Shown here piece after piece: positions 50-25,572 of a stretch of 26,300 nucleotides of DNA (the stretch's first letter is position 1; each line of letters begins with the position of its first letter). Below the pieces are notes generated by a model. That model was not told where the DNA came from. It searched no databases and saw only the letters and a list, made by a program, of their open reading frames with translations. This DNA is from a virus, in UHGV virus genome UHGV-0046267; one strand, written 5' to 3'. The position numbers and the translations under genes were made by a program.

Positions 50-1054
50 TTAATCCCCCGTGGACACTGCGTGGACACTCACGCCACCTTTCAGCGGATT
101 AAGGGCCACCGCATCCTGCAGGTAATCCGGTGCAAAATGTGCATATGCCATTGTTTGCTGAATGGTTGCGTGGCCAAGAATCTTCTGAAGCGCAATAATG
201 TTTCCTCCGTTCATCACAAAATGGCTGGCGAACGTATGCCGCAGCACATGTGCAGCCTGGCCTTTTGGTAAATCGGGCTTAACTCTTTTCAGCGCCAAGC
301 AGAATTCCCGGTACTTCACCTCAAACAAGCCGCCTGTTTCTCTGGTTTTGATCGCCTCACAAACTGCCTGCGAAATTGGCACTGTTCTCTTTCGGCCATT
401 TTTGGTTTCAAGAAACGTTACACGGTTATGAACTATCTGTTCACCACGAAGCTTACAAGCTTCACTCCAGCGCGCCCCTGTGCTTAAACACAAAAGCGCA
501 ACACGCCAGTAGTCGCCCTCCAGTGTATCGAGCAATAGCGCTACTTCCTTCTGGGACAGGAAAGCCATTTCTCGCGGGGATACATAAAGAATGGAGATCC
601 CCCTTACCGGATGTTCTGCATCCCAAAGGCCTATTCTTTTCAGAACAGTAAACATGCCGGATAGTCGGTTCATGTACCTGTTAGCAGATGACGGTTTCAA
701 TCCAGCAGCTATCTTTTGAGAACGCCACGCGATAATTTTCAGCTTATCAAGATCCACAGCCTGCATATCAGCGCCAAGCTCATTGATTATGTTGCACAGT
801 TGTTTTCGGTCTTCTTCCGCCTTACGCCTGTGTTGACCGTGATACATCCACCACAACTCAAGCAAATCATTTAGCGTTCGGCGATCACGGTAGCCCTGTA
901 TATATTCCCGCTTTTCAGCGTTCGCCATGATGTAGCGTTCAGTGGCCACCGCTACCGATTTTTTGTCAAATACCTTACGCACGCGCTTTCCCTTGCGTCC
1001 GTTCGGCCTGATGTCCAGCAAATAACGACCATCTTCGAGCTTCTTAATTGACAT
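50..1054 (-). CDS. int: Tyrosine integrase, P2 Int-like. The ORF track extends to 1069 (TTG); the ATG at 1054 preceded by GGAGGG is the more likely start.
   Basis: Translation has the phage-integrase C-terminal catalytic region (ARWSE...HVLRHTFASH...LGHATIQQTMAYAH) and sits at the prophage edge next to the repressor, as in P2. Confidence 0.9.
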   Translation of the reverse strand: MSIKKLEDGRYLLDIRPNGRKGKRVRKVFDKKSVAVATERYIMANAEKREYIQGYRDRRTLNDLLELWWMYHGQHRRKAEEDRKQLCNIINELGADMQAVDLDKLKIIAWRSQKIAAGLKPSSANRYMNRLSGMFTVLKRIGLWDAEHPVRGISILYVSPREMAFLSQKEVALLLDTLEGDYWRVALLCLSTGARWSEACKLRGEQIVHNRVTFLETKNGRKRTVPISQAVCEAIKTRETGGLFEVKYREFCLALKRVKPDLPKGQAAHVLRHTFASHFVMNGGNIIALQKILGHATIQQTMAYAHFAPDYLQDAVALNPLKGGVSVHAVSTGD

Positions 1055-1150
1055 AGCGAAGCCCTCCAATGAACCGCCCTACAATTTCTCCAGCCTCTTT
1101 CCAGCAATAATCAGACCAGACAAAGAGCAGGTCTAACCAGTTTTCTGGCC

Positions 1151-1489
1151 TTAGCGGGGTGATTTTTGGTTTGTTTCGGTTGAAACCTGATCGCCCTCCG
1201 AATCGAAGAAGCCATCAAGAGAGAGAGGCGGAGCAATCTGCCCCGTCGCAGCATTAGTTTGATTAAACATCACCCAATCCGAATACTTCCGAAAACGAGG
1301 ATGATTCAAAATCAGGAGTAACGTTTCTCCAGGTATCATTCTTCCCAATATTTCATAATTTTTGAGATTGTATTGAGATACCCCTGTCACCTCTTCCATC
1401 TCTCTACGTGACAATCCCTCTGCCTCTCGAATCAGGCGAAGTTTTTCTCCAAGGCTTGATTTATGGATCATATGTGATCTAAACTCCAT
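1151..1489 (-). CDS. Immunity repressor, P2 C-like. An alternative ATG at 1471 (MIHKSS...) would give 106 aa.
   Basis: About 100 aa, divergent from cox and directly upstream of int. The WVMFNQT...GQIAP pattern resembles the P2 C family from memory. Confidence 0.7.
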   Translation of the reverse strand: MEFRSHMIHKSSLGEKLRLIREAEGLSRREMEEVTGVSQYNLKNYEILGRMIPGETLLLILNHPRFRKYSDWVMFNQTNAATGQIAPPLSLDGFFDSEGDQVSTETNQKSPR

Positions 1490-1586
1490 GCTATTGGGTT
1501 ACATGTGACACAAAACATTCAAATAGCCAAAATAAGCCTATATAAGCCATTTTGGGCCATTTGGACGAATTAAGGAGATTACCACA
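1490..1586. promoter_or_regulatory. Repressor/cox switch region with candidate early promoter (TTCAAA 1518-1523, 17 bp spacer, TATAAG 1541-1546) and direct repeats of ATAAGCC at 1532-1538 and 1542-1548.
   Basis: 97 bp between divergent regulators. The hexamers and the 7-bp repeats spaced 10 bp apart are read directly from the sequence; P2-type operators are direct repeats around the early promoter. Confidence 0.45.
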
Positions 1587-1874
1587 ATGAGCGAATCAGA
1601 GCTTGAGGGGTTCATTCAGGTAGCACCATATCCACTTGAAGCGGTGCCATATCAACTATTTGCCAAGATGATTGGTCGCAAAGAATCAACCGTCAGAACC
1701 ATGATTGACGCTGCAAAGTTACCAACGATTGACTTTGTGAAACCAGGTTCAGTGAAGACGCGAGCATCAGAAAACTGGGTATATCTGCCAGCATTTAACG
1801 CCGGTATGCGCAAAGCGTTTTTTGATCAGCCGAAAGAACGCCGCGATGCATGGTTGTTGTGGCTGGGGCTTTAA
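1587..1874 (+). CDS. cox: Cox-like excisionase / transcriptional regulator.
   Basis: 95 aa, first gene of the rightward early operon, AAGGAG RBS at 1572-1577. Motifs PYQLFAKMIGR, WVYLPAFN and WLLWLGL match the P2 Cox family as I recall it. Confidence 0.8.
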   Translation: MSESELEGFIQVAPYPLEAVPYQLFAKMIGRKESTVRTMIDAAKLPTIDFVKPGSVKTRASENWVYLPAFNAGMRKAFFDQPKERRDAWLLWLGL

Positions 1875-2567: not shown

Positions 2568-2855
2568 ATGACCAAAGAGCATGCACAAGGTGTATTTATC
2601 CGTTTTATTGATTTTCGCGGTGAACTGTTATTACGCGCATCCGCTATTGATGGAGTGGCTCCGGCGGGTAAAAACGGAGCCGACGAAGCCACTTACGTTT
2701 ATCTGAACGGCACGCGACTGCTTGTGGAACTTCCGTACCAGACCGTACGAGAAATCATTAGTGAAGCTGAAAAGGCACGCCTGGCTAATGGCGATGAACC
2801 CTATATCGAAATTATTTGTATGGATTCAGAAACTGAAATTCAGAAAGCAGATTAA
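2568..2855 (+). CDS. Hypothetical early protein.
   Basis: In-operon ORF; ATG at 2568 (MTKEHAQG...) chosen over the upstream alternative start in the track. Confidence 0.5.
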   Translation: MTKEHAQGVFIRFIDFRGELLLRASAIDGVAPAGKNGADEATYVYLNGTRLLVELPYQTVREIISEAEKARLANGDEPYIEIICMDSETEIQKAD

Positions 2856-2866
2856 AGGGCGTTGCG

Positions 2867-3109
2867 ATGGGCAAAGAATATAAAACTCTCATTAACAAAG
2901 CACTTGAGCGTTTTTATTTTCGCTTAAGTGCATCAGGCGCTCATGCTGAACGTGCAGCCCGTGACTCATTGACCAGGGCAATCCGGAGTCTGTATGACGT
3001 GGCTTTTTACGCTGATGATCTGGATGCACTTAACGAACTTTCCGGGCTGATCTGTGCCGCAGAATGCGGGGAACATATTGAACCGTATAAGCTGGGGAAT
3101 ATTGCATGA
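2867..3109 (+). CDS. Hypothetical early protein.
   Basis: 80 aa ORF in the early operon, same strand, short spacing from the previous gene. Confidence 0.5.
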   Translation: MGKEYKTLINKALERFYFRLSASGAHAERAARDSLTRAIRSLYDVAFYADDLDALNELSGLICAAECGEHIEPYKLGNIA

Positions 3110-3219
3110 GTATATTTATCTCATGGCTTGTTCTGATTATTTCGGTGGCCTGCGCTATTGGGATTATGCGAATTATTCATTCAATAAAAAAGATTGAACG
3201 CTTTTTCACTGGCGAATAA
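3106..3219 (+). CDS. Possible 37-aa hydrophobic micropeptide (MSIFISWLVLIISVACAIGIMRIIHSIKKIERFFTGE), translationally coupled.
   Basis: ATG at 3106 overlaps the upstream stop (ATGA). I translated it by hand; it is too short for the ORF track. One predicted transmembrane helix followed by a basic tail. Confidence 0.3.
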   Translation: MSIFISWLVLIISVACAIGIMRIIHSIKKIERFFTGE

Positions 3220-3305
3220 CAGAGCAAATAAAACCACAGATTAAATAAGAAAATGTAAAAACAATCCGCATTCGCGGAGGTATTCGCACACGCCAAGGAG
3301 GCGTA

Positions 3306-5044: not shown

Positions 5045-7810
5045 ATGACGGCAGAGTACATCAGGGACTGGCAACAACCGCGCCACGCAGTGGGGCGTGA
5101 AGGAACGGGGATCCCCGCTCCTGAATCCGCGCTTTCCTCCTGGCTGGATGCCTACCGGGCAGAGAACGAGCGCCGCCAGGAAATGGCTGATGCGGCGTTC
5201 TCCGCCACGCCGCTGGGCAACCTGATTAATAAAAGCCTGGACGCACAGGAAAAACAGGACAAAACCATCACACTGGCAGGAGACGCCAGAAAACAGGCAC
5301 GCGGCGCGGTGGATGAAGCCATGGCCTCGCTGCGCCTGCTGCCGTCCTATCTGCGCGATCCGCTTATTCGCCACCTCTCCTTCCTGCGCAAAAAACAGGA
5401 AGCCGATCGCCGGAAAGGAAAAAAGAGCTGGCAGGCTGAACGCTACGCGTGCGGAACCCTGCGCAAAATATTCGAACGTCTGGACCGCACCGACCACCGC
5501 TGGCTGACACCGGGTTATCGCTCCCTTGCCGGACGCGAACGCCTGGACGATTTGCTTTACCTGCCGCAGCTCAACAAACACCAGATACAGACGCTGGCCA
5601 CCATGACGGCGGCGATGTTCAGCAGCACCTTCGAAAAACTCTGCGATGGCTTTGGCGCGACTGATGGCGAGCTGACCATGGATGTAACGCTGAAGGCGTA
5701 TCAGATGCTGGCCCGCATGGCGTTACACCTGCACGCCATGCCTCCGCATTATGACGTACTGACAACAGACAAAGACCGGAGGAACGAACCGGACACGGAG
5801 CTGCTGCCGGGCGCAATCCTTCGCCTGACCTGTGCGGAATGGTGGAAACGCAAACTGTGGCTGTTACGTTGCGAGTGGAGAGAAGAACAACTCCGCGCCG
5901 CCTGTCTGGTTTCCAGAAAAACATCACCCTATCTGAGCCAGGACGCGTTAAGCGAGTTTCGCGCACAGCGCGAGAAAACACGCGATTTCCTGAAAAGTTT
6001 CATGCTGGAAAACGAAGACGGGTTCACGATTGATCTCGAGACAGTGTATTACGCGGGAGTAAGTAACCCGGTTCACCGTAAGGCAGAAATGATGGCCACC
6101 ATGAAGGGGCTGGAACTTCTGGCCGAAGCCCGTGGCGACAAAGCGGTGTTTCTGACTGTCACCTGCCCGTCAAAATACCACGCCACAACAGAGAACGGTC
6201 ATCCGAATCCCAAATGGAACGGGGCCACCATGCGCGACTCCAGCGATTACCTGGTTAACACGTTTTTTGCAGCGGTCCGCAAGAAACTGAACCGCGATGG
6301 CCTGCGCTGGTATGGCATCCGCACGGTGGAGCCTCACCATGACGGCACCGTGCACTGGCATATGATGGTCTTTGCTCATCCGGAAGAAATCGACAGCATT
6401 GTGGCCATCACCCGCGATATTGCCATTCAGGAAGACCGCCACGAGCTGGGCGATGACATAACTCCGCGTTTTAAGGCGGAGTACGTAGACGGCTCAAAAG
6501 GCACACCAACCAGCTATATCGCGACCTACATCGGAAAAAACCTGGACAGCCGCGCCGTGGATGGCATCGACCCGAAAACGGGCAAGCCACGCGTTGACCA
6601 CGAAACCGGAAAATCAATGGCAGAGAGCGTGGAACGCGCCATCGGCTGGGCGCGCCTTCACCGGGTCCGCCAGTTCCAGTTCTTTGGTATCCCCTCCCGT
6701 CAGGTGTGGCGTGAACTGCGTCGCCTTGCCAGCCAGATGGCACGCAACCCGGAAGGCCCGCAACGGCTGAAGGATGACGCAATGGACTCGGTTCTTGCTG
6801 CCGCTGATGCCGGATGTTTTGCCACCTACATAGAGAAACAGGGCGGCGTACTTGTTCCACGCAAAGACTACCTGATTCGCACCGCCTACGACCTCGCAGA
6901 TGAGCTGAACGATTACGGCGAACAGAGCGTACAGATTTACGGGATCTGGTCACCACTCATCGGGGAATCCTCCCGTGTGTGCACGCACCCGGATAACTGG
7001 AAGCTGGTAAGACGTAAACCTGAAGCAGAAGACATCGCCCGCGAAAATGGTTTTGACCTTCAGGGCGGCCCTGCCGCCCCTTGGACTCGTGGCAATAACT
7101 GTCCCCGTGTACAGGAAACGGACAACAACGGGACAGAACAGCCGGAAGAACGGCCAGCACCGTGGCCGCAGCTCCCTGACGGCGTTGAAGTGAACGAATG
7201 GATGCGCTCACTGAAACGGCACGAACGCCGGGCGCTGATGCGTGCGCTTCGTGACAAACAGGCAAAAAACAGCAGTGATGAAATGCAGAGCTGGACACAG
7301 AGCCGCAAACAGCAGCGGCCTTTGCCTGATAACCACGAATTACTCGCTAAAGAATGGCGGGAGTCTGCTGAATCTCTCGGCCTGCATATCGGTGAACAAC
7401 AGATGCAGCACCTGTTACGGGGCGGCAGTCTGTACGTTGACGGCAGCATCATTGCACCGCAGAGATTTGAAATTGTACGCAAACCAGATACCCGACCGGA
7501 CAGCCGAATCACGCAGCTCTGGCAGCGCCTGAGCCGTAATCACGGCGTAAACAGCACGGAAATCCGCCATAACCCGGTTTCCAGCTATCTGAAACAGCTC
7601 GGGGCATCAGACCCAGAAGCCGCTGCACGCCTGGCATCCACAATTCAGCAGGACCAGAACACCATGAAAACTCCCGTTACCGTGCTTTCTGACATGCTGC
7701 GCGCCATCCGTGACGCAGAACACGCACAGAGAATCAATGAAACCACTGAACGCGCACGTCACAAGGCGAGTCTGTTGCAGGACAAAGGCAATAGCGAGAA
7801 GAAAAAATAA
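5045..7810 (+). CDS. Replication initiation endonuclease, P2 gpA family (rolling-circle HUH nickase).
   Basis: 921 aa. HUH-type motif VHWHMMVF and a tyrosine motif YIATYIGK are present. Position after the early operon matches P2 gene A. Confidence 0.9.
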   Translation: MTAEYIRDWQQPRHAVGREGTGIPAPESALSSWLDAYRAENERRQEMADAAFSATPLGNLINKSLDAQEKQDKTITLAGDARKQARGAVDEAMASLRLLPSYLRDPLIRHLSFLRKKQEADRRKGKKSWQAERYACGTLRKIFERLDRTDHRWLTPGYRSLAGRERLDDLLYLPQLNKHQIQTLATMTAAMFSSTFEKLCDGFGATDGELTMDVTLKAYQMLARMALHLHAMPPHYDVLTTDKDRRNEPDTELLPGAILRLTCAEWWKRKLWLLRCEWREEQLRAACLVSRKTSPYLSQDALSEFRAQREKTRDFLKSFMLENEDGFTIDLETVYYAGVSNPVHRKAEMMATMKGLELLAEARGDKAVFLTVTCPSKYHATTENGHPNPKWNGATMRDSSDYLVNTFFAAVRKKLNRDGLRWYGIRTVEPHHDGTVHWHMMVFAHPEEIDSIVAITRDIAIQEDRHELGDDITPRFKAEYVDGSKGTPTSYIATYIGKNLDSRAVDGIDPKTGKPRVDHETGKSMAESVERAIGWARLHRVRQFQFFGIPSRQVWRELRRLASQMARNPEGPQRLKDDAMDSVLAAADAGCFATYIEKQGGVLVPRKDYLIRTAYDLADELNDYGEQSVQIYGIWSPLIGESSRVCTHPDNWKLVRRKPEAEDIARENGFDLQGGPAAPWTRGNNCPRVQETDNNGTEQPEERPAPWPQLPDGVEVNEWMRSLKRHERRALMRALRDKQAKNSSDEMQSWTQSRKQQRPLPDNHELLAKEWRESAESLGLHIGEQQMQHLLRGGSLYVDGSIIAPQRFEIVRKPDTRPDSRITQLWQRLSRNHGVNSTEIRHNPVSSYLKQLGASDPEAAARLASTIQQDQNTMKTPVTVLSDMLRAIRDAEHAQRINETTERARHKASLLQDKGNSEKKK

Positions 7811-7910
7811 CCAAGAAAGAAATCATCAATTGTATGAAGGTAGAGTTTAGACATGGTAAGGACGTTCCATGAGACACACTGTAATTTCATATAGTATTCC
7901 TCTTCCCTGT

Positions 7911-7939
7911 TTGACAAAAAAGTGCAATACTATAAATAG
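7911..7939 (+). promoter_or_regulatory. Candidate sigma70-type promoter for the accessory operon (TTGACA at 7911-7916; TATAAAT at 7931-7937).
   Basis: Consensus -35 hexamer and AT-rich -10-like element read in the 180-bp AT-rich intergenic region; spacer length is suboptimal (14-16 bp depending on register). Confidence 0.35.
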
Positions 7940-7990
7940 TCCAGTTAAATGCTTTTTCAATTCACTTAAAATCAAGAGGTTACAGTTAAG

Positions 7991-9112
7991 ATGGGCGACT
8001 TAGGTGGTATTCAGTCAGATTTAGCCCAACTAGTTAGACTGGTAATAGCTGAACAGTATGATGACGTTCGGTTATATGTCGCTCGCTTGGTGCGTAAATA
8101 TCGGGAAACTATGCCTGCTCTATCCGAGCAGCTTGATCTTTATCTACGAAATAAACCGCAAAAGCCTGCACAAAGCCTGCGTAAGGTTACCGCACCAAAA
8201 CAAGCGCTGCCTCAAACCATGCCTGTGGACGAGGAGTCAAGGCTTACCTTGCTTAAAGCACCAAATGAAAAGATTGTGAGCAAACCTCTACTGTCCAGTC
8301 AGATAGAAGACTCACTGGATCAAATTATTCTTGAGCGGAAGCACATCGATCGCCTCAAGGCTCTCGGCTTACAACCAACACGCTCTGCCATTTTTGTTGG
8401 CCCTCCGGGTGTAGGTAAAACACTTACGGCAAGCTGGTTAGCTCAGAAATTAGGGGTTCCTTTTTACGTTCTTGATTTAACGGCAGTAATGAGCAGCTAT
8501 CTGGGCAAAAGCGGAAATAACCTTCGGGCAGCTCTAGATTTTGCGAAGAAAGGGCCGTGCGTTCTTCTGTTAGATGAAATTGATTCAATCGCCAAAAAGA
8601 GAAGTGATGATTCTGATGTTGGAGAATTAAAAAGACTTGTTACCGTGATACTCCAGGAGGTTGACGAATGGCCGTCTTCTAGTTTGCTACTTGCTGCAAC
8701 TAACTTCGCTGAGTTGATTGATCCAGCACTATGGAGACGTTTTGATTTAGTGCTCAATTTTGAGAAGCCAGATAGCGAAAGTATTAAAGAAGCAATTAAA
8801 CGCTTTTCAGGTCCCGACTACGCGATTTTTGCACGTTGGATAGATCTACTGGCTATTATGTTCAAAAATGAATCTTTTAGTAATATTGAGCGTTCTATCA
8901 ACAAATTCCGACGTTCGGTCGCTTTAGGTATTTCCTCAGATGAAGAGTTGATTGGGTCGTTCATTAAAGATGGTTTATCAGAATTAGACAGGAATGAACG
9001 TAAAGAAATTGCAGTTACTCTAAAAAGAAATTCTAAATTATCCCAGCATGCCATATCAGACTTAACCGGAGTCAGTAGGGATACAATTAGAAAATACAGT
9101 CAAAAAATGTAA
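7991..9112 (+). CDS. AAA+ ATPase, first gene of the accessory cassette (IetA-like by architecture).
   Basis: 373 aa. Walker A GPPGVGKT and Walker B VLLLDEID present. AAGAGG RBS upstream. AT-rich relative to the phage backbone. C-terminus has an HTH-like stretch (LSQHAISDLTGVSRDTIRKY). Confidence 0.8.
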   Translation: MGDLGGIQSDLAQLVRLVIAEQYDDVRLYVARLVRKYRETMPALSEQLDLYLRNKPQKPAQSLRKVTAPKQALPQTMPVDEESRLTLLKAPNEKIVSKPLLSSQIEDSLDQIILERKHIDRLKALGLQPTRSAIFVGPPGVGKTLTASWLAQKLGVPFYVLDLTAVMSSYLGKSGNNLRAALDFAKKGPCVLLLDEIDSIAKKRSDDSDVGELKRLVTVILQEVDEWPSSSLLLAATNFAELIDPALWRRFDLVLNFEKPDSESIKEAIKRFSGPDYAIFARWIDLLAIMFKNESFSNIERSINKFRRSVALGISSDEELIGSFIKDGLSELDRNERKEIAVTLKRNSKLSQHAISDLTGVSRDTIRKYSQKM

Positions 9113-9135
9113 TACAGCATAGATAAGGAGTATGT

Positions 9136-11361
9136 ATGGCGAAAACTAATTTTCTGATTGGACGCGGCGAATTATTAACCAGCGATATTCCTGGTCCTAA
9201 AAGAGTGCCCGGAAAAGCTGAGGTTTATTCTCTTTACGAATCGAAACAACGTTTATTGCCGCAAATTGCATCTACTATAGAAAATTTTGATGATTTACCC
9301 AGTCAGGCATGTCCTTATGATTATGCTGTGGCTAAGTTGACGTTGAATCCGAGCTATATTGCACGCTCTTTTTTTCCTGCAAAAATGCTTAAGTCTACCG
9401 GGTTAACGTCTATTGGCAGCAGGACGGTAAAAATTACGCCTCAAAGCTGGAAGCGAAAAGTTACTGTGTCAGAAGTAACTACGACACAAATGTTTGTTGC
9501 TGGTAAAAGAGAATCCTTCAAAGAGTTACCTCATTGGGTGTCAGGACTCAAAGAGTTTTCTGACGAAGCGATTGATTTTGCACGCATAGAACGGTTCGAT
9601 GCCTATTTACCCGAAGAGCGTATTATTACCATTGGTGAGCAGGATTCTTCGTATTTTGAGGTTGGTGTTCATTTACTGCCAGATAATGAACAAGACTTGG
9701 TTCAGCAACAATTTGTTCAGTTTGCATCAAATTTGAACATCAAAGTACATACTTCATTAGCTTTTACCGCTGGTACATTATGGTTCGTGCCAATCCAGGC
9801 CGATAGAATTACTATTAGTAAGCTTGCGAAATTTACATTTGTACGAGTAATAAGACCGGTTCCAAGATTGCGTGGGATTAGACCAATACAAAGGAACTAC
9901 GGTCCTTTAGCTCAGTGTAAATTGCCTGCTGAGGGCCCCGTATCTTCAGAAATAAAAGTTGCGATTCTTGATGGTGGTTTACCATCAGAGCACGCTATAT
10001 CGCCATGGTTAAAATCCTATAGAGTTTTGGACGATCATGCAGAGGATGATCCAGACGGTTTAGAGCATGGTTTAGCTGTGTCTTCAGCCTTTTTATTTGG
10101 ACCAATAAGTAATAAATCGGAAGCGAAAAGACCATACTCTTATATTGATAACTTAAGAGTTTTGGACAACAAGACCTGCCAAGAAGATCCGCTGGAACTA
10201 TATCGAACTTTGGGCTTTATTGAAGAGGTATTGTTGTCTCGCCAGTATCAGTTTATCAATCTAAGTTTAGGTCCAGACCTACCAATTGAAGATACGGAAG
10301 TTCATGCATGGACTTCCGTTATTGATGATTTGTTAAGTGATGGTGAAACATTAATGACTGTTGCTGTTGGCAACAATGGAGAAATGGATCGCAAGTCTGG
10401 TAATGCAAGAATTCAAGTACCAGCCGATTGCGTTAATGCTCTTGCTGTTGGTGCTTGTGATACAGTTAATGATACGGAATGGAAACGAGCACCATATAGC
10501 GCCATTGGGCCAGGCAGAAGTCCTGGCGTGATGAAACCGGATTTAGTTGCGTTTGGTGGTGACACAGACGAGTACTTTCATGTTTTAGGTAAAGGTAAGA
10601 AGCCTGTAATCATACCCCAGCTAGGAACAAGCTTTGCCTCTCCTTACGCCTTACGAGCAGCTGTTGGTGTTCGGGCAATTTTAGGGAACGATTTGAGCCT
10701 ACTAGCAATCAAAGCTTTGTTAATTCATGCGTCAAAACAGCTTGATCATCCTTGTACAGAAGTTGGCTGGGGAAAACTGCCTGAAGACTTGAACGACATT
10801 ATAGTCAGCCCTGATGGTGTTGCCCGTATCGTCTACCAAGGTGAATTGAAACCAGGAAAATACTTACGCGCTTCTCTTCCAATACCTGAAGGTGGCTTGA
10901 AAGGTAGAATAAACTTAGCGGCAACTTTCTGTTATGCAACAACCACTGATCCACAAGACCCAGCTTCCTATACAAAAGCTGGTTTGGAAGTGACATTCCG
11001 GCCAAATGATTCAAAAATCAAAGACGGAAAACAAAATGCTGAAACCAAGGGATTCTTTGAACTGGCCAAATATTCAACTGAAAGTGAGCGACGTTCTGAC
11101 ATGGGCAAATGGGAGACCGTCTTACATAATTCGAAGAACATGCTAGGTTCAACTCTAAAAAATCCTGTATTTGACATTCATTATAACGCTCGTGAGGCCG
11201 GTGCAAGCATAGCCAGCCATAAGGCAGAAAAAATCAAGTATGCTCTTATAATTACCATTAAGGCATCAAAGCACCAAGACCTGTATAACGAAATTTTACG
11301 TACTTATAATCAGGTGCTCGTGCCAATTCAACCGCAAACATCAATTCCTATTCGTTCGTAA
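9136..11361 (+). CDS. Subtilisin-like serine peptidase, S8 family, second gene of the cassette (IetS-like by architecture).
   Basis: 741 aa, 23 bp downstream of the ATPase with an AAGGAG RBS. Catalytic triad motifs in canonical order: Asp (VAILDGG), His (HGLAVSS), Ser (GTSFASP). Extra N- and C-terminal regions of unknown function. Confidence 0.85.
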   Translation: MAKTNFLIGRGELLTSDIPGPKRVPGKAEVYSLYESKQRLLPQIASTIENFDDLPSQACPYDYAVAKLTLNPSYIARSFFPAKMLKSTGLTSIGSRTVKITPQSWKRKVTVSEVTTTQMFVAGKRESFKELPHWVSGLKEFSDEAIDFARIERFDAYLPEERIITIGEQDSSYFEVGVHLLPDNEQDLVQQQFVQFASNLNIKVHTSLAFTAGTLWFVPIQADRITISKLAKFTFVRVIRPVPRLRGIRPIQRNYGPLAQCKLPAEGPVSSEIKVAILDGGLPSEHAISPWLKSYRVLDDHAEDDPDGLEHGLAVSSAFLFGPISNKSEAKRPYSYIDNLRVLDNKTCQEDPLELYRTLGFIEEVLLSRQYQFINLSLGPDLPIEDTEVHAWTSVIDDLLSDGETLMTVAVGNNGEMDRKSGNARIQVPADCVNALAVGACDTVNDTEWKRAPYSAIGPGRSPGVMKPDLVAFGGDTDEYFHVLGKGKKPVIIPQLGTSFASPYALRAAVGVRAILGNDLSLLAIKALLIHASKQLDHPCTEVGWGKLPEDLNDIIVSPDGVARIVYQGELKPGKYLRASLPIPEGGLKGRINLAATFCYATTTDPQDPASYTKAGLEVTFRPNDSKIKDGKQNAETKGFFELAKYSTESERRSDMGKWETVLHNSKNMLGSTLKNPVFDIHYNAREAGASIASHKAEKIKYALIITIKASKHQDLYNEILRTYNQVLVPIQPQTSIPIRS

Positions 11362-11376
11362 TCCTTCAAGACATAA

Positions 11377-11405
11377 TGCCCCTCAATTTGAGGGGCATTT
11401 CTTTG
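11377..11405 (+). terminator. Intrinsic terminator closing the accessory operon.
   Basis: Perfect hairpin ATGCCCCTCAA / TTGAGGGGCAT followed by a T-rich tract, 16 bp after the peptidase stop. Confidence 0.7.
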
Positions 11406-11823
11406 CACAAAAGTGCACAAATTTGCACAATTTTTTTGAACAACTTTTTACCCTTCCGGCCCGCATGGCGGCTGGATCCGTCAAGGATCCGTGCGTGCAC
11501 AAAAAAACGCGTTTTTTCTGCGCGCAGGTGACGGGGGAACAGCCCGCGTTTCAGGGGGTAAATAGCATCCCCTGAACGATGTCGCAGCGACACAACAGAA
11601 TGGCTGTATTTCTCACGCTGAGCGTGAAAAAGACGTGAGGGCTTTTGATTTGATGGGGTGAAAGGTAAGGCCGTCAAAATCGCACTGAGACGGCGAGAAC
11701 ATGCAGTCAACGCGGTGGGATTGCGTAAGAGTCTGACTGTCGATGATGGCAATCAGCAGGAAAGCATCGTGAAATTATCTGACTGATACAGGAGCTGGAG
11801 AGTCGGGGGGGGGAAATTTTTTT
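11406..11823. other. Repeat- and palindrome-rich non-coding region, candidate cos/packaging region.
   Basis: No credible ORF. Contains three TGCACAA repeats (about 11403-11430), a GGATCCGT direct repeat, and a 16-bp palindrome AAAAAACGCGTTTTTT (11502-11517). In P2 the cos site lies between the old/tin region and gene Q. Confidence 0.35.
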
Positions 11824-11918
11824 NNNNNNNNNNNNNNNNNNNNNNNNNNNNNNNNNNNNNNNNNNNNNNNNNNNNNNNNNNNNNNNNNNNNNNNNNNNNN
11901 NNNNNNNNNNNNNNNNNN
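11824..11918. other. Assembly gap (95 N).
   Basis: N-run flanked on both sides by the same AAATTTTTT string and by a G homopolymer. Confidence 0.9.
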
Positions 11919-11961
11919 AAATTTTTTATGCCCCGGCGAAGCAGCAGACAAGCGAAGCGCG

Positions 11962-13008
11962 TCAGGATGTGGGCTGGGTGTCTAACAGTGCGTAAGGGTT
12001 AAAGCGGATCACCTCTTCGCCAAGCCAGTCATTGATGTGCTTCATGGCCTCCATGACGGGCATCAGCTCGTTAATTGCGTAAACCCGTGCGGCCTTCTCC
12101 ACATCACCAAACGCACTTTTTTCGCCCGGCATCGCCCCCATCAGTTGCGGCGGAACGCGGTGCGCAGCCAGCACATCATCACGGGATGCCGCCTTAACAT
12201 TCATGAACTCATCCTTTGCGGTGATCTGCTGGAACGGCAAAATTTGCACCCCCTCTTTGCCCCCGTTGGGCGCATGGATGAGCACGTTTTTAAACGCACC
12301 ACCACCACGTGCCCCCTGTAACGTTTCTTTCAGGGAGTCCATGCTTTCGCGGTTTACCTGCGCTGCTCCGATGTAGATGATGCACCCGGCGTGGGATCCA
12401 TTGTCGTAATACAGTTTTCTGAACATGTCCGCCGAATGAGACAGGCTGGCCGAGAGTAATGCGCCAAGATATTCCGGCATGCCGTAAATTTCCTGGTTAA
12501 TGTCCGGATTCATCAGGTGGCACACTTTGCCAGGGCGAAACTGAAACGCGTCCTTGCCATCCTGCACATACCACCATGATTCAAGATCGCTTCCGCGTCG
12601 CATGTATTTCGCCAGGGCGTGCCGTAATTTAAGCGGTTCGCCGAGCATATTGCTTCGAAGCTCAAGGAATGCGTTACCGAACACAAACCAGTCCAGCGCC
12701 AGCGCCGAGAAATCCTGCCGGGAAAGCAACGGGTGCGGGATGTAGCAACCGAGTAATACATTGCGCTTAAAGTAAAGCGCAGACTGATGCCAGGACGTTT
12801 GCCGGGCAGCTCTTGCCAGACCGTACCAGTCCACCGGGGTTTCATACCACCGCCCGTTATCAGCACAGTACATATTGTCCAGCAGGTCATGCCCGGTCAG
12901 GCGATAAGGACCATCAAATGTGAATGCACTGAGCGATGATTCTTTCCTGAGCGCATCAGCGAGATCAATGCGTGAACTCATGCGCACTTTTTTATTTTTT
13001 CTGCTCAT
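11962..13008 (-). CDS. Portal protein, P2 gpQ-like.
   Basis: 348 aa, start overlapping the terminase stop, divergent from the capsid genes exactly as Q-P in P2. Confidence 0.85.
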   Translation of the reverse strand: MSRKNKKVRMSSRIDLADALRKESSLSAFTFDGPYRLTGHDLLDNMYCADNGRWYETPVDWYGLARAARQTSWHQSALYFKRNVLLGCYIPHPLLSRQDFSALALDWFVFGNAFLELRSNMLGEPLKLRHALAKYMRRGSDLESWWYVQDGKDAFQFRPGKVCHLMNPDINQEIYGMPEYLGALLSASLSHSADMFRKLYYDNGSHAGCIIYIGAAQVNRESMDSLKETLQGARGGGAFKNVLIHAPNGGKEGVQILPFQQITAKDEFMNVKAASRDDVLAAHRVPPQLMGAMPGEKSAFGDVEKAARVYAINELMPVMEAMKHINDWLGEEVIRFNPYALLDTQPTS

Positions 13009-14759
13009 CAGAACTCCATAACCGTGAAACGCTCGTTTTCTCCTTCGCCGCCAATTGGTTCGTTAATGACAGCAAGCATGGTTGCCCACGCAAGGTCGCC
13101 GTGGCTGATCCCCCTCGCGCGGTCCGTTTCGTAAGTGATAAAGCCGCCCGGTGTTTTCACCTTACGCACGGCGTTAAAGGCCGCGACCAGCTCGCGTTCG
13201 GCGCGATCGTATTCCCACCGCCCGGCACGCATTATTTGCAGCATTTTCAGTACCAGCGACCGTTTTGATGACAGCGTGAAGGTGTACGGAATAGCGGCAG
13301 GGAAAAACCGTTTCACTATCTGATAAACAGCCTCCCCGTTCCCGCCCGTCACATCAATGCCGATGTGTTCCACGTTGTAGCGACACGTGAACTCTTCAAT
13401 GACTCTGGCCTGTTCTTCAAACTCCAGCCCCTGAACGCGTCGCGTCTCCACCGTTCGAAAACGGCCACCAGGAACAGACGGAGGAACCACCACGGACACA
13501 GCGCCGCTGTCGCCGTTGCCACTGCTGCCGTTTGCGTCATACCCAATCCATACCGGACGATTCCCCATCGGGCGGGGAGCAAAAGGTTTCCAGTCTTTCC
13601 AGTCGTCGTATCCGTCAACACCGCAGCCAATCAGGATATTCAGGTTAAATGCCGATTCCCCTTCGCGGACAAACTCACACATATAGAGATTGTGGAACTC
13701 GTCTTCGGTGTTTTCATCACGAATTTCGTCGATATCGGTGTGTTCCCAGCCGTGATTAACCACATCTTCCAGCGTGACAATTTGCCGCCACGTCCGGTCA
13801 GGGCAGATAAGCCCGTTATGCAGCGTTTTCCAGTCCACAGAAAAACGCTGGCGTTTATGCGTGGCCTTTTTCTCGTTCCAGCGGTCGCCGTTCCAGTAGG
13901 CGTATGCCTCGTGCGTTTCGGTGGATGGCGTGGAGAAGTAGGTGCGCCGCAGTCCGCTGAGGGTTGCCATAGCGCCAGCCACCTTGCGCAGTTCAGCAAA
14001 GCGACTGACCCAGAAAAATTCATCAAAATAAAAATTGCCCGTATAGGACTGTGCCGACGCAGCAGAAGTGCCGAGAAAATGCAGCTCTGCGCCGTTGGAG
14101 AGGATGATTTTATCACCCCCTTTCAGCTCCACATCAACTTCAGCCGCGGCCTTCTGAATAATGCTTTTAAACTGGAACGCCTGACGACGCGACGCAGACA
14201 AAAAAATCTGGTTACGCTGGTAAGGTTGCGCCACATCGTCACGCAGCGCCATCAGCAGCGCTTCCTGTGCAAAATACCAGGTCGCCCCAATCTGTCGGGA
14301 TTTCAGGATCATCCTGTTACGTATCCCTGCTTCCCTGCAAAGGGTCAGGGAGTCAAACCAGCCCCGCTGATGCCACTCCAGCCTGCTGATGATTTTTTCC
14401 CGCAGTGCGGCAATCTGTTCCGGCGTGAAATGATTTTTAAGCTTTTTCGCCCGGCCTTTCTTTCCTGTGGCCGTCGCATCCGGCTGGCCATCATGCAGTT
14501 TTTTAAGCTGCCGGGTCAGCAGGTCTATTTCCTTGAAGTCACCACCTGTTTTATTCTGTTTTTCAGTGAGCTGGATGAGGCGCGCATCGATGGACTGCGT
14601 AACACGCTGCACGGGTGGTGTTTCATCCCACTGGTCGCGTTTTTTCCACGCATAAATCGTGTTCGGGTTTATTCCCATCAGACGTGATATTTCTGCGGGC
14701 GGATACCCCTGCCAGTAAAGTTGCCGCGCACGCTGGCGCACAAAAGCGTCCTGAATCAT
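13008..14759 (-). CDS. Terminase large (ATPase) subunit, P2 gpP-like.
   Basis: 583 aa with ATG at 14759. Size and position match P2 gpP, upstream of and coupled to the portal gene. Confidence 0.85.
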   Translation of the reverse strand: MIQDAFVRQRARQLYWQGYPPAEISRLMGINPNTIYAWKKRDQWDETPPVQRVTQSIDARLIQLTEKQNKTGGDFKEIDLLTRQLKKLHDGQPDATATGKKGRAKKLKNHFTPEQIAALREKIISRLEWHQRGWFDSLTLCREAGIRNRMILKSRQIGATWYFAQEALLMALRDDVAQPYQRNQIFLSASRRQAFQFKSIIQKAAAEVDVELKGGDKIILSNGAELHFLGTSAASAQSYTGNFYFDEFFWVSRFAELRKVAGAMATLSGLRRTYFSTPSTETHEAYAYWNGDRWNEKKATHKRQRFSVDWKTLHNGLICPDRTWRQIVTLEDVVNHGWEHTDIDEIRDENTEDEFHNLYMCEFVREGESAFNLNILIGCGVDGYDDWKDWKPFAPRPMGNRPVWIGYDANGSSGNGDSGAVSVVVPPSVPGGRFRTVETRRVQGLEFEEQARVIEEFTCRYNVEHIGIDVTGGNGEAVYQIVKRFFPAAIPYTFTLSSKRSLVLKMLQIMRAGRWEYDRAERELVAAFNAVRKVKTPGGFITYETDRARGISHGDLAWATMLAVINEPIGGEGENERFTVMEF

Positions 14760-16857: not shown

Positions 16858-16915
16858 NNNNNNNNNNNNNNNNNNNNNNNNNNNNNNNNNNNNNNNNNNN
16901 NNNNNNNNNNNNNNN
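16858..16915. other. Assembly gap (58 N) with probable artefactual homopolymer sequence on its right flank.
   Basis: CCGCCTG is present on both sides of the N-run; CACCCCGGGGGGGGCACCCCCCCC follows the gap. Confidence 0.85.
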
Positions 16916-23258: not shown

Positions 23259-25008
23259 ATGAGTACCACAACACGAAAATTTAAAACCGTTATCACCGAT
23301 ACGGGTGCAAAAAAATTAGCGCAGGCAGCCGCGCCAGATGGTAAGCCTGTCCGCCTGACTCATATGGCCGTGGGCGACGGTGGCGGTACATTGCCCACAC
23401 CTGACAGTAAGCAGACCCGTCTGGTGCATGAGGTGTGGCGACACACTGTTAATCGCGTCATCCTGGACGCAACACATCAGAACCGCATTATTGCAGAGCT
23501 GGTTATTCCTCCAGAAACGGGCGGATTCTGGATCCGGGAAATTGGTGTATTTGATGAGCACGGCGATTTAATCGCGGTGGGCAATACTGCCGAAAGTTAC
23601 AAGCCAGCCGTTGCCGAAGGGTCCGGTCGTGCACAAACATTTCGCACCATTCTGACCGTATCCAGCACTGCCACCGTGGCGCTTACCGTGGATAACACCA
23701 TGGTGATGGCCACAGTGGATTACGTGGATGACAAACTGAAAGAGCATGAACAGTCACGACGTCACCCGGACGCCTCGCTGACCGCAAAAGGCTTTGTCCA
23801 GCTCAGTAGCGCCACCAACAGCACGTCTGAAACATTGGCCGCGACATCGAAAGCGGTTAAGGCGGTAATGGATGAAACAAATAAGAAAGCCCCATTAAAC
23901 AGCCCGGCGCTGACCGGAACGCCAACAACACCAACTGCGCGACAGGGAACGAATAATACCCAAATCGCAAGCACGGCTTTCGTTATGGCTGCGATTGCCG
24001 CCCTTGTAGATTCGTCACCTGATGCACTGAACACGCTGAACGAGCTGGCTGCGGCGTTGGGCAACGACCCGAATTTTGCGACCACCATGACTAACGCGCT
24101 TGCGGGTAAGCAACCGAAAGATGCCACCCTGACGGCGCTGGCCGGGCTTGCTACTGCGGCAGACAGGTTTCCGNNNNNNNNNNNNNNNNNNCAGGTTTCC
24201 GTATTTTACGGGGAATGATGTCGCCAGCCTGGCAACTCTGACAAAAGTCGGGCGGGATATTCTTGCGAAATCGACCGTTGCCGCCGTTATCGAATACCTC
24301 GGTTTACGAGAACTCGGCACAAGCGGGGAGAAAATACCGTTACTCAGTACAGCGAATACCTGGACCAATCGACAAACATTCAGCGGTGGCCTTTCTGGGG
24401 AACTGTCCGGCAATGCCGCTACTGCAACAAAGCTGAAAACAGCACGAAAAATTGCTGGAGTTGGTTTTGATGGTTCTAGCGATATTTCAATTAGTGCCAA
24501 AAATGTCAATGCATTTGCACTCCGACAAACAGGTAATACTGTTAATGGTGATACATCCGTTGGATGGAATTGGGATAGTGGTGCATATAACGCCCTGATT
24601 GGTGGTGCATCTGCATTAATTCTTCACTTTAATATAAATGCTGGTAGCTGTCCTGCCGTACAATTCCGTGTGAATTATAAAAATGGTGGCATTTCCTACA
24701 GGTCGGCTCGTGATGGTTATGGGTTTGAATTAGGTTGGTCAGATTTCTATACCACGACACGAAAACCTTCAGCGGGAGATGTTGGTGCATATACGCGGGC
24801 AGAATGTAACTCAAGGTTTATTACAGGTATTCGCCTTGGCGGTCTGTCATCTGTTCAGACATGGAATGGTCCCGGCTGGTCTGACAGGTCAGGTTATGTC
24901 GTTACGGGTTCAGTTAACGGAAACCGTGATGAATTAATTGATACAACACAGGCAAGGCCAATTCAGTATTGCATTAATGGGACGTGGTATAACGCGGGGA
25001 GTATTTAA
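23259..25008 (+). CDS. Tail fibre protein (gpH-like), interrupted by an assembly gap. Conserved N-terminal part followed by a divergent, AT-richer C-terminal receptor-binding part.
   Basis: Two track ORFs (23259-24218 and 24148-25008) join across the N-run if the flanking duplicate is collapsed (…AADRFPYFTGND…). C-terminus ends INGTWYNAGSI. Confidence 0.8.
24174..24191. other. Assembly gap (18 N) inside the tail fibre gene.
   Basis: CAGGTTTCCG is duplicated on both sides of the N-run; removing one copy restores the reading frame. Confidence 0.85.
24287..24312. other. Candidate DNA-invertase crossover site (gix/cix/pix-like) inside the tail fibre gene.
   Basis: TTATCGAATACCTCGGTTTACGAGAA matches the Mu gix sequence as I recall it (TTATCCAAAACCTCGGTTTACAGGAA) at about 21 of 26 positions. 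It sits at the boundary between the conserved and variable parts of the fibre. Confidence 0.5.
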
Positions 25009-25010
25009 CG

Positions 25011-25544
25011 ATGATGCACTTAAAAAACATTACTGCTGGCAACCCTAAAACAAAAGAGCAATACCAGCTAACAAAGCAATTTAACATCAAATGGCTTTAT
25101 TCAGATGATGGAAAAAACTGGTATGAGGAACAAAAGAATTTCCAGCCAGACACTTTGAAAATGGTCTATGACCATAACGGCGTTATTATTTGTATTGAAA
25201 AGGATGTTTCAGCAATTAATCCGGAAGGCGCAAGCGTCGTTGAATTACCTGATATTACAGCAAATCGCCGGGCTGATATTTCGGGGAAATGGTTGTTCAA
25301 AGATGGCGTAGTGATAAAGCGAACTTATACCGAGGAAGAGCAGAGGCAACAAGCGGAAAATGAAAAGCAAAGCCTGTTGCAACTTGTCAGGGATAAAACC
25401 CAGCTATGGGACTCACAGCTACGGCTGGGCATCATTTCCGACGAGAATAAACAAAAATTAACCGAGTGGATGCTCTATGCGCAGAAAGTCGAATCTACAG
25501 ACACCTCCAGCCTGCCAGTAACGTTTCCCGAACAACCAGAATGA
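25011..25544 (+). CDS. Tail fibre assembly protein (Tfa / gpG-like).
   Basis: 177 aa immediately after the fibre gene; conserved N-terminus [20 protein letters not shown] and DITANRRAD core typical of the Tfa family. Confidence 0.8.
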   Translation: MMHLKNITAGNPKTKEQYQLTKQFNIKWLYSDDGKNWYEEQKNFQPDTLKMVYDHNGVIICIEKDVSAINPEGASVVELPDITANRRADISGKWLFKDGVVIKRTYTEEEQRQQAENEKQSLLQLVRDKTQLWDSQLRLGIISDENKQKLTEWMLYAQKVESTDTSSLPVTFPEQPE

Positions 25545-25545
25545 G

Positions 25546-25572
25546 AGAAGGCCCGATATTGGGCCTTAATTT
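25546..25572 (+). terminator. Hairpin terminator between the two convergent tail fibre assembly genes.
   Basis: Stem AAGGCCC / GGGCCTT with loop GATATT, followed by AATTTTTA. Confidence 0.55.

What the first reader, a model, noticed from the sequence alone, without database searches (positions are those of the whole stretch)
7811..11960. Cargo sits in the gpA-to-cos hotspot where P2 carries tin and old
The gene order here (gpA, cassette, non-coding stretch, portal Q) is that of P2, and the occupied slot is the one holding tin and old in P2, a known variable locus for defence cargo in P2-like prophages. Composition drops sharply at about 7811 and recovers after about 11400, marking the boundaries of the swapped module. 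That makes this prophage a carrier of host-protective cargo rather than only a parasite.
Basis: partly seen in the sequence, partly recalled or inferred. Interest (0 to 1): 0.6.

Follow-up and report, generated by a model that had tools for sequence, protein, structure and literature searches.

The report
IetAS defence cassette in P2-type hotspot
A P2-family prophage of E. coli carries, in the well-known swappable slot between its replication gene and its portal gene, a two-gene ATPase/protease cassette (IetAS) of a known anti-phage and toxin-antitoxin family. This exact arrangement is already listed in the literature, so the finding is correct but ordinary.

Summary
The gene order is gpA (5045-7810), a two-gene cassette (7991-11361), a non-coding stretch, then portal Q and terminase P on the other strand. 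That is P2's order, and the cassette sits where P2 carries tin and old. GC falls from 0.56 to 0.33 right after the gpA stop, averages 0.41 over the cargo and returns to about 0.51 from about 11400. Homology with the nearest phage, P88, breaks at 7755 and resumes at 11397.

The cargo is IetA (AAA+ ATPase) plus IetS (S8 serine peptidase), the IetAS defence and toxin-antitoxin family. The matching core region occurs in 1449 of 5426 complete E. coli genomes, but only 44 carry this cargo. Most relatives carry a ParM partition module plus variable extras.

A second E. coli P2-like prophage has the same cassette (92-93% aa) beside a gpA only 37% identical. Salmonella, Serratia and Enterobacter P2-like phages hold it in the same slot. 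The module is therefore exchanged, not simply inherited.

Rousset et al. 2022 list this same IetA accession, with an S8 peptidase, in the P2 gpA-gpQ hotspot. Their system table lists ietAS as a named system of that hotspot. Verdict: confirmed, interpretation supported, already known. Anti-phage activity of this clade is inferred, not shown.

The parts
5045..7810 (+). gpA replication endonuclease (921 aa), the left flank of the hotspot. Homology with phage P88 ends at 7755, so the last ~18 codons belong to the swapped segment.
   Evidence: Pfam Phage_GPA 2.5e-131. blastn against P88: window 6001-7755 at 95.8% identity, then no match. P2 gpA is 31% identical.
7811..7990 (+). AT-rich leader of the cassette (GC 0.33). 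It holds a -35-like TTGACA (7911-7916) bracketed by an inverted repeat (7890-7904 / 7920-7934). This is a candidate promoter and operator, which is an inference.
   Evidence: Promoter-like site with 10 of 12 matches (the number of such sites in the region is not above chance). Inverted repeat of 15 nt, 87% complementary. The block from about 7880 onward is conserved in the E. coli, Salmonella and Serratia cassettes.
7991..9112 (+). ietA: classic-clade AAA+ ATPase (373 aa), identical to WP_000502619. Walker A GPPGVGKT starts at residue 137 and Walker B VLLLDE at 191; the paired arginines R249 and R250 are invariant. It has a C-terminal helix-turn-helix-like three-helix tail. It is the presumed antitoxin or regulator.
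   Evidence: Pfam AAA 2.6e-30 and weak HTH_11/HTH_23 hits at 339-369. PADLOC IetA 9.2e-78. Motifs. AF2 model pLDDT 73, with best fold matches p97, FtsH and proteasome Rpt subunits. Identity to the RefSeq protein.
9136..11361 (+). ietS: S8 subtilase-family serine peptidase (741 aa), identical to WP_001140703. The catalytic triad is D279, H311 and S499, all invariant in 37 homologues. Extra N-terminal (~30-242) and C-terminal (~555-725) domains flank the protease. It is the presumed toxin or effector.
   Evidence: Pfam Peptidase_S8 2.5e-19 at 271-546. PADLOC IetS 2.9e-51 over 36-726. Motifs and invariant columns. The AF2 model is confident only for the N-terminal domain.
11375..11399 (+). Intrinsic-terminator-like hairpin (11-bp stem) followed by UUUCUUU. 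It ends the cassette, and the right junction of the swapped module lies at 11396/11397.
   Evidence: RNA fold -19.4 kcal/mol, z = -4.8, 0 of 200 shuffles as stable. The tool's terminator scan missed it because only 4 of 8 bases in the tail are T. P88 homology resumes at 11397.
11397..11961 (.). Conserved non-coding cos-proximal region, the right anchor of the hotspot. It contains TGCACAA repeats (11403-11432 and about 11497) and a cos-like 19-mer GGTGACGGGGGAACAGCCC (11527-11545). That the 19-mer is the cohesive-end site is an inference.
   Evidence: 93-98% identical to P88. Blocks are conserved across E. coli, Salmonella, Serratia and Enterobacter P2-like phages. The 19-mer aligns with Serratia GGCGAGGCGGGGGAGCAAGC, which resembles the P2 cos GGCGAGGCGGGGAAAGCAC. 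Direct blastn against the P2 cos region gave no significant alignment. No Rfam match.
11824..11918 (.). 95-N scaffold gap inside the terminator hairpin downstream of Q. It is an assembly artefact, not biology.
   Evidence: Complete genomes and P88 read ...GAGTCGGGGCATAAATTTTTTATGCCCCGGCGA... with nothing missing. That hairpin folds at -21 kcal/mol.
11962..14759 (-). Portal Q (11962-13008) and large terminase P (13008-14759), the right flank of the hotspot.
   Evidence: Pfam Phage_portal 4.4e-18; Terminase_6N 3.1e-50, Terminase_6C and Terminase_5. Q is 100% and P 97.8% identical to P88.

Best explanation
The window is a P88-like (Xuanwuvirus, Peduoviridae) prophage of E. coli. Between its replication gene gpA and the cos/portal region lies the P2-family accessory-gene hotspot, the slot where P2 has tin and old. 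In this prophage the slot holds one self-contained cassette of about 3.6 kb: an AT-rich leader, ietA, ietS and a terminator.

Shown here: the cassette is compositionally foreign. It is present in only about 3% of E. coli genomes that match the surrounding region. It recurs in the same slot of P2-like phages whose core genes are much more diverged than the cargo.

Inferred: exchange happens by recombination. The conserved cos-proximal block serves as the right anchor. The 3' end of gpA, or the intergenic DNA after it, serves as the left anchor.

Function, inferred from the family and the literature and not tested here: IetS is a toxic S8 protease held in check by the hexameric AAA+ ATPase IetA. 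A protein from an infecting phage upsets this balance. IetS then cleaves essential targets and the cell stops growing or dies before the invader completes its cycle (abortive infection). This protects the lysogen population and the resident prophage. The same toxin-antitoxin logic would also penalise loss of the prophage.
For: Identity of the phage and the slot.

Cargo family: PADLOC IetA 9.2e-78 and IetS 2.9e-51 with near full-length coverage. NCBIfam's best and only specific hits are IteA_antiphage and IteS_antiphage. Walker A and B, the paired arginines and the D/H/S triad are intact and invariant.

Foreign composition.

Hotspot behaviour:
- 1449 genomes match the gpA-Q region, against 42-44 with this cargo. 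The alternatives are ParM with DUF4760, DUF3800, Ead/Ea22, Doc toxin, PIN/HTH or hypothetical genes.
- CFSAN051542 cargo is 92-93% identical in protein, against gpA 37%, Q 71% and P 79%.
- Salmonella and Serratia P2-like prophages and Enterobacter phage phiT5282H carry the pair in the same slot.
- Relatives at 65-68% identity sit in a putative transposon context (integrase-type transposase next to an AAA ATPase) and in other islands.

Literature:
- The gpA-gpQ locus had 1,650 arrangements in 18,150 loci (PMC9122126).
- Table S5A lists WP_000502619, which is this IetA, with an S8 peptidase in that locus. Table S5B lists ietAS as a named system of the hotspot.
- IetAS protects by abortive infection and is triggered by a phage protein in a Bacillus system (bioRxiv 10.1101/2022.08.27.505566).
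- The protease is the toxin and the ATPase the antitoxin. A construct with mutated ietA could not be obtained for the ietHAS variant, and the anti-phage mechanism is still unknown (PMC13069673).
- E. coli ietAS is noted as often prophage-borne (bioRxiv 10.1101/2022.08.21.504612).
Against: No experiment on this clade was available to me.
- Both proteins score far below NCBIfam's equivalog cut-offs: 223.7 against 510 bits and 133.9 against 900 bits.
- IetS is only 23-28% identical to proteins that NCBI names IteS. Transferring the phenotype from the tested systems is therefore an extrapolation.
- An E. coli ietAS (from ECOR52; not checked whether it is this cassette) gave only limited protection on its own.
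- The IetS structure model is poor (pLDDT 54), so nothing can be said about how IetA restrains it.
- The aromatic pore-loop residue of IetA (Y170 here) is Leu in the consensus of its homologues. Substrate threading is therefore not assured.
- Promoter-like sites in the region are not more frequent than chance.
- The cos site was located by alignment only.
Confidence: 0.85

Rival explanations
1. The cassette serves mainly the prophage, as an addiction or stability module (post-segregational killing) rather than as anti-phage defence. It takes the place that the ParM/ParR-type partition module holds in most P88-like relatives, so the slot would be a 'maintenance' slot. This is not mutually exclusive with defence.
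For: IetAS was first described as the stability toxin-antitoxin system of plasmid pTiC58 (Yamamoto 2009, as cited in PMC13069673). Its homologue SgiAT stabilises the integrative element SGI1 (PMC5006074). Most close relatives carry ParM and a partition protein in the slot, and this prophage has neither. [quoted passage not shown]
Against: The family has demonstrated anti-phage and abortive-infection phenotypes. The hotspot is rich in validated defences. An integrated prophage has little need for segregational stability. Nothing here shows that P88-like phages persist as plasmids.
Confidence: 0.3
2. The low-GC block is an ancestral, vertically inherited part of this phage lineage. The composition only reflects gene-specific bias, and there is no swapping.
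For: 43 E. coli genomes carry the cassette at 99% identity or more in the same context, which by itself fits one successful phage lineage.
Against: About 1400 genomes with 95-99% identical matches to the surrounding region carry other cargo. The same cassette sits beside a gpA only 37% identical in another E. coli prophage. It also sits beside gpA genes of different lengths (790, 804 and 815 aa) in Serratia and Salmonella. GC3 is 0.32-0.35 against 0.61-0.69 in the core genes.
Confidence: 0.03
3. The ATPase/protease pair is a phage life-cycle function, for example a morphogenetic protease with a chaperone or a lysis/lysogeny regulator, and not accessory cargo.
For: Phages do encode proteases and AAA+ proteins. 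PHROGs holds both proteins in phage families of unknown function (phrog_3757 at 5.9e-133, phrog_3964 at 4.9e-255).
Against: P2, P88 and about 97% of the close relatives lack it and are, or have been isolated as, viable phages. Head, terminase and scaffold genes are all present elsewhere in the window. No phage record holds this DNA.
Confidence: 0.02

Closest known systems
P2 gpA-gpQ (cos-proximal, old/tin) hotspot of P2-like phages (Rousset et al. 2022, PMC9122126; also PMC13586616 and bioRxiv 10.1101/2024.10.15.618418)
   Same: Same flanking genes, same orientation of the flanks, and adjacency to cos. Content varies among near-identical phages and the cargo has foreign composition. This same IetA accession (WP_000502619), paired with an S8 peptidase, is listed for this locus in their Table S5A.
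   Different: The phage is P88-like (Xuanwuvirus), with P2 A, Q and P only 31%, 47% and 44% identical. The cargo is transcribed in the same direction as gpA, whereas old and tin in P2 are transcribed towards gpA. There is no orf91, tin or old.
IetAS defence system (Gao et al. 2020); NCBIfam IteA_antiphage NF042959 and IteS_antiphage NF042956; PADLOC IetA and IetS models
   Same: A two-gene operon with the AAA+ ATPase first and the S8 peptidase second, about 370 and 740 aa. Alignment to the family models is full-length, and the catalytic motifs are intact.
   Different: A divergent clade. It scores below NCBI's equivalog cut-offs, and IetS is 23-28% identical to NCBI-named IteS proteins. Phenotype and trigger have not been tested for this clade.
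IetA/IetS toxin-antitoxin system of Ti plasmid pTiC58 and SgiAT of Salmonella genomic island 1
   Same: The same protein pair, in which the protease is the toxin and the ATPase the antitoxin. Both are carried on a mobile element whose maintenance they promote. IetS relatives on Agrobacterium, Rhizobium and other alphaproteobacterial plasmids are 41-54% identical.
   Different: Here the pair sits in a prophage hotspot. I could not retrieve the pTiC58 or SGI1 sequences to measure identity directly.
ietHAS (Liu-DS4), an IetAS variant with an SNF2 helicase (PMC13069673)
   Same: The IetA and IetS core. Protease activity is required for defence, and a construct with mutated ietA could not be obtained.
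   Different: No helicase gene is present in the window. The cassette has two genes only.

Membership tests
P2-family gpA-Q (old/tin) accessory hotspot | Lies directly downstream of the replication endonuclease gpA | tested here: met
   Phage_GPA 2.5e-131 at 5045-7810. The cassette starts 181 nt after the gpA stop.
P2-family gpA-Q (old/tin) accessory hotspot | Bounded on the other side by cos and the leftward Q-P operon, followed by the rightward O-N-M-L operon | tested here: met
   Portal and terminase lie on the minus strand at 11962-14759. GPO scaffold, P2-family capsid and gpM follow, as seen in the 99% identical genome locus. The P2 map is given for comparison.
P2-family gpA-Q (old/tin) accessory hotspot | cos site adjacent to the cargo | tested here: inconclusive
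   A cos-like 19-mer at 11527-11545 lies in a block conserved across lineages. Direct alignment with the P2 cos was not significant, and no virion-end data exist.
P2-family gpA-Q (old/tin) accessory hotspot | Content differs among phages whose flanks are nearly identical | tested here: met
   1449 genomes match the gpA-Q query (1352 records at 95-99% identity), and 42-44 hold this cargo. ParM-based and other cargos sit elsewhere.
P2-family gpA-Q (old/tin) accessory hotspot | The same cargo is found with diverged flanks (exchange between lineages) | tested here: met
   CFSAN051542: IetA 93% and IetS 92%, against gpA 37%, Q 71% and P 79%. Salmonella, Serratia and Enterobacter phages hold the pair in the same slot.
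IetAS | Adjacent, co-directional AAA+ ATPase gene followed by an S8 peptidase gene | tested here: met
   7991-9112 and 9136-11361, separated by a 23-nt gap, both on the plus strand.
IetAS | Matches the family's profile models | tested here: met
   PADLOC IetA 9.2e-78 (model positions 5-370 of 374) and IetS 2.9e-51 (38-733 of 749).
IetAS | Reaches NCBIfam's equivalog cut-offs for IteA and IteS (same function as the reference system) | tested here: not met
   223.7 bits against 510, and 133.9 bits against 900. RefSeq accordingly names them only 'AAA family ATPase' and 'S8 family peptidase'. So this is a family member in the broad sense but not an equivalog of the reference.
IetAS | Intact ATPase motifs and serine-protease triad | tested here: met
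   Walker A starting at 137, Walker B at 191, R249 and R250, and D279, H311 and S499 are all invariant in the alignments.
IetAS | Confers resistance to phage; protease toxic and neutralised by the ATPase | not testable with these tools
   Known only from the literature for other members.
P2 Old / Tin exclusion proteins | Homology to P2 old or tin | tested here: not met
   tblastn of P2 Old, Tin and Orf91 against the window found no hit at E <= 0.01. There is no Old-type PADLOC hit. The slot is the same but the cargo is unrelated.

The most novel reading that the evidence does not exclude
The enterobacterial, P2-borne IetAS clade may be a functionally distinct, self-regulating subtype. IetA carries a C-terminal helix-turn-helix. 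The cassette carries a conserved inverted repeat around its -35 element. IetA may therefore repress its own operon like a type II antitoxin. In P88-like phages the cassette replaces, and in some genomes is nested within, the ParM/ParR partition module. This would make the 'defence hotspot' partly a slot for interchangeable element-maintenance modules, with anti-phage activity as a by-product.
Probability: 0.2. Interest if true: 0.35.

Novelty: already known. Interest (0 to 1): 0.15.

Why it matters
It adds no new biology. The gpA-Q hotspot of P2-like phages is among the best-documented phage defence hotspots, and this same IetA, paired with an S8 peptidase, is in the published catalogue of its contents.

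The value is practical. The locus can be annotated with confidence as IetAS in a P88-like prophage, with module boundaries at 7756 and 11396. It is a clean natural example of one cassette moving between diverged phages through one slot.

The open question is the IetAS mechanism itself, which the literature still reports as unknown. This abundant E. coli clade, with its compact native promoter region and terminator, would be a convenient model for it.

Tried and rejected
- Aligning the window's non-coding stretch with the P2 cos region gave no significant match. The cos-like site was placed only through a multi-lineage alignment.
- DNA search of the cargo against 50,697 phage records found nothing. 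Protein search found only distant relatives (38% identity or less), in phiT5282H, a Pf phage and Paenibacillus phages.
- The structure prediction of IetS was poor: pLDDT 54, with the S8 core below 50. Its PDB fold matches (ProN-Tk-SP, ACT-like tandems, jelly rolls) have TM-scores of 0.22 or less. I do not rely on them.
- No solved structure of an IetS-like protein exists beyond generic subtilisins.
- Rfam found no RNA family in 7600-12100.
- The promoter scan found no more sites than in shuffled sequence.
- The 128-aa minus-strand ORF at 11366-11752 has no Pfam or PADLOC hit and is not annotated in RefSeq relatives. I treat it as non-coding.
- Gao 2020 and Yamamoto 2009 are not held in the paper library. 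They are cited only through other papers.
- pTiC58 did not appear among the plasmid hits, so identity to the founding IetAS could not be measured.
- I did not establish whether the ECOR52 ietAS tested by Wu et al. is this cassette.

Full report
**What is in the sequence**

The window is most of a P2-family prophage. It holds an integrase (50-1069, minus strand), an HTH repressor, Cox and early genes. After these come gpA (5045-7810), two large plus-strand ORFs (7991-9112 and 9136-11361) and about 600 nt without convincing genes. Portal Q (11962-13008) and terminase P (13008-14759) follow on the minus strand. The head, lysis, tail and tail-fibre genes come last.

Megablast places it among P88-like phages (Xuanwuvirus, Peduoviridae). 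P88, Chuche, Shae_phiSM and 520873 match the flanks at 96-97% identity. A complete E. coli genome (strain 98202) matches the whole 6-kb stretch at 99.3%. Its RefSeq annotation there reads replication endonuclease, AAA family ATPase, S8 family peptidase, phage portal protein.

P2 itself is a distant relative. Its A, Q and P proteins are 31%, 47% and 44% identical, and tin, old and orf91 have no counterpart in the window.

**Composition and boundaries**

GC in 200-bp windows is 0.56 at 7600-7799 and 0.33 at 7800-7999. It stays at 0.36-0.50 through the two ORFs and is back at 0.515 by 11400-11599. Segment means are gpA 0.572, 7811-11400 0.413, 11401-11961 0.506 and Q 0.537.

Third-position GC separates the cargo even more sharply: ietA 0.353 and ietS 0.321, against gpA 0.64, Q 0.622, P 0.61 and N 0.687. 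The lowest-GC 3.6-kb window in the whole 26.3 kb starts at 7801.

Homology breakpoints agree with composition. Identity with P88 stops at 7755, inside the last 18 codons of gpA, and resumes at 11397.

The coarse profile seems to stay low up to about 12000. That is caused by a 95-N scaffold gap at 11824-11918. The gap sits inside the terminator hairpin downstream of Q, and finished genomes show that nothing is missing there.

**What the cargo is**

The first ORF is a classic-clade AAA+ ATPase (Pfam AAA 2.6e-30). The second is an S8 subtilase (2.5e-19) with large extra N- and C-terminal regions.

PADLOC assigns them to IetA (9.2e-78) and IetS (2.9e-51) with almost full-length coverage. NCBIfam's only specific matches are IteA_antiphage and IteS_antiphage. 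Both are far below the equivalog cut-offs, at 223.7 against 510 bits and 133.9 against 900 bits. Proteins that NCBI names IteS are only 23-28% identical to this IetS. This is therefore a divergent clade of the family, not the reference system.

The catalytic equipment is intact. Walker A (GPPGVGKT) starts at residue 137, Walker B (VLLLDE) at 191, and the paired arginines are R249 and R250. The protease triad is D279, H311 and S499. All are invariant across the 32 and 37 homologues aligned.

An AlphaFold model of IetA (pLDDT 73) shows four parts. These are an N-terminal helical bundle, a disordered linker, an AAA+ core that best matches p97, FtsH and proteasome Rpt subunits, and a C-terminal three-helix tail. 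The weak Pfam HTH hits fall on that tail. The IetS model was too poor to use.

Around the genes there are three features:
- an AT-rich leader with a -35-like TTGACA bracketed by a 15-nt inverted repeat;
- conservation of that block in the E. coli, Salmonella and Serratia versions of the cassette;
- a strong terminator-like hairpin straight after ietS (-19.4 kcal/mol, z = -4.8).

The cassette therefore looks like a self-contained transcription unit.

**Is the slot a swappable hotspot?**

Yes, on three independent lines of evidence.

First, the 6-7 kb gpA-Q query found a match in 1449 of 5426 complete E. coli genomes, with 1352 records at 95-99% identity. Some of these match only part of the query. 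Only 42-44 genomes contain this cargo, 43 of them at 99% identity or more. A spread sample of the rest shows mostly a ParM-type partition module. It is combined with DUF4760, DUF3800, Ead/Ea22-like, Doc toxin, PIN/HTH, XF1762-family or hypothetical genes. P88 itself has the ParM-like module plus small genes.

Second, E. coli CFSAN051542 carries the same cassette between gpA and Q of a different P2-like prophage. IetA is 93% and IetS 92% identical there, but gpA only 37%, Q 71% and P 79%. Cargo that is much more similar than the core genes is the signature of exchange.

Third, close homologues of IetA (95%, P0130) and IetS (77%, P0006) sit in the same slot of Salmonella and Serratia P2-like prophages. 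Those prophages have gpA genes of different lengths and different upstream genes. A distant version (38%) occupies the slot in Enterobacter phage phiT5282H. Relatives at 65-68% identity lie in other contexts. In Burkholderia the pair lies beside an integrase-type transposase and an AAA ATPase, which may be a transposon, and in Nitrosomonas a transposase lies about 4 kb upstream. In a Salmonella it sits in another island.

The right-hand junction always abuts a conserved non-coding block. That block contains TGCACAA repeats and a cos-like 19-mer. It is a plausible recombination anchor, but this is an inference.

**How it most likely works**

The following is inferred from the family.
- IetAS was first described as a toxin-antitoxin pair of pTiC58, with the protease as toxin and the ATPase as antitoxin.
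- In the related three-gene ietHAS system, protease activity is needed for defence, and a construct with mutated ietA could not be obtained.
- The anti-phage mechanism is still described as unknown (PMC13069673).
- A Bacillus IetAS acts by abortive infection and becomes toxic when the SPbeta protein YosG is expressed.
- The homologue SgiAT stabilises Salmonella genomic island 1.

I therefore propose that IetA, acting as an ATP-driven hexamer, keeps IetS inactive. A phage product disturbs this balance, and IetS proteolysis then arrests or kills the cell.

What is shown here is only the architecture, the intact motifs and the genomic behaviour. The trigger, the substrate, the abortive-infection phenotype and any autoregulation through the IetA HTH and the inverted repeat are all inferred.

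The main rival is that the cassette is chiefly a prophage addiction module. It stands where relatives keep a partition system, so this reading is not excluded, and it is compatible with defence.

**Comparison with what is known, and novelty**

The gpA-gpQ locus of P2-like phages is a published defence hotspot. Rousset et al. 2022 found 1,650 arrangements in 18,150 E. coli loci, with about a quarter carrying a putative partition system. Later surveys confirmed it.

Their Table S5A lists 'AAA/HTH_50 + Peptidase_S8' with WP_000502619 in this locus. Their system table for the hotspot (Table S5B) lists ietAS (Gao et al. 2020) as a named system. It appears immediately before the entry numbered 8, which has 306 occurrences. 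The window's IetA is identical to WP_000502619, and its IetS is identical to WP_001140703. Wu et al. also note that ietAS in E. coli often sits in prophages.

The finding is therefore correct and well observed, but already known. I score interest at 0.15.

Noticed in passing
window 11824-11918, 16858-16915, 24174-24191: Three runs of N (95, 58 and 18 bases). The first lies inside the hairpin downstream of Q and is flanked by odd poly-G and poly-T ends. Finished genomes show no missing sequence, so it is a scaffold-gap artefact. It also depresses the GC value in coarse windows.
   Followed up: partly
window 24148-26100: A tail-fibre C-terminal ORF is followed by two tail-fibre assembly genes in opposite orientation (25011-25544 plus strand, 25573-26100 minus strand). 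The region has low GC (0.40-0.45). It looks like an invertible or exchangeable host-range segment, which is another known variable spot of P2-like phages.
   Followed up: no
window 7890-7934: A 15-nt inverted repeat (TATAGTATTCCTCTT / AAGTGCAATACTATA) brackets the -35-like TTGACA upstream of ietA. It is conserved in the E. coli, Salmonella and Serratia cassettes. With the C-terminal HTH-like tail of IetA, it suggests antitoxin-style autoregulation.
   Followed up: partly
window 11403-11432 and about 11497-11503: Repeated TGCACAA motifs occur in the non-coding block immediately right of the cargo. They are conserved in E. coli, Salmonella, Serratia and Enterobacter P2-like phages. They could be a protein-binding site near cos or the recombination anchor of the hotspot.
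   Followed up: partly
window 5045-7810: gpA is 921 aa, against 761 aa in P2. P2 gpA aligns only up to window 7168, so the C-terminal ~210 aa have no P2 counterpart. The last ~18 codons differ from P88 because the cargo junction lies inside the gene.
   Followed up: partly
E. coli genomes NZ_CM143910.1, NZ_CP169013.1, NZ_CP077596.1, NZ_CP077515.1 (hits H46, H50, H51, H100): In some strains the cassette is disrupted or flanked by IS elements. ISKpn26 splits the S8 peptidase, and IS1203 lies within the gpA-Q interval, apparently outside the cassette. One O111:H8 strain retains only the last 40% of the cassette. This hints at a cost of carrying it.
   Followed up: no
Rousset et al. 2022 Table S5A: [quoted passage not shown] The hotspot therefore has internal insertion points, and ietAS and the partition module can coexist.
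   Followed up: no
window 1251-1750 and 2751-3250: Two further low-GC patches (0.41-0.42) lie in the early region, around the repressor/cox genes and a small ORF (2867-3109). They may be other variable spots.
   Followed up: no
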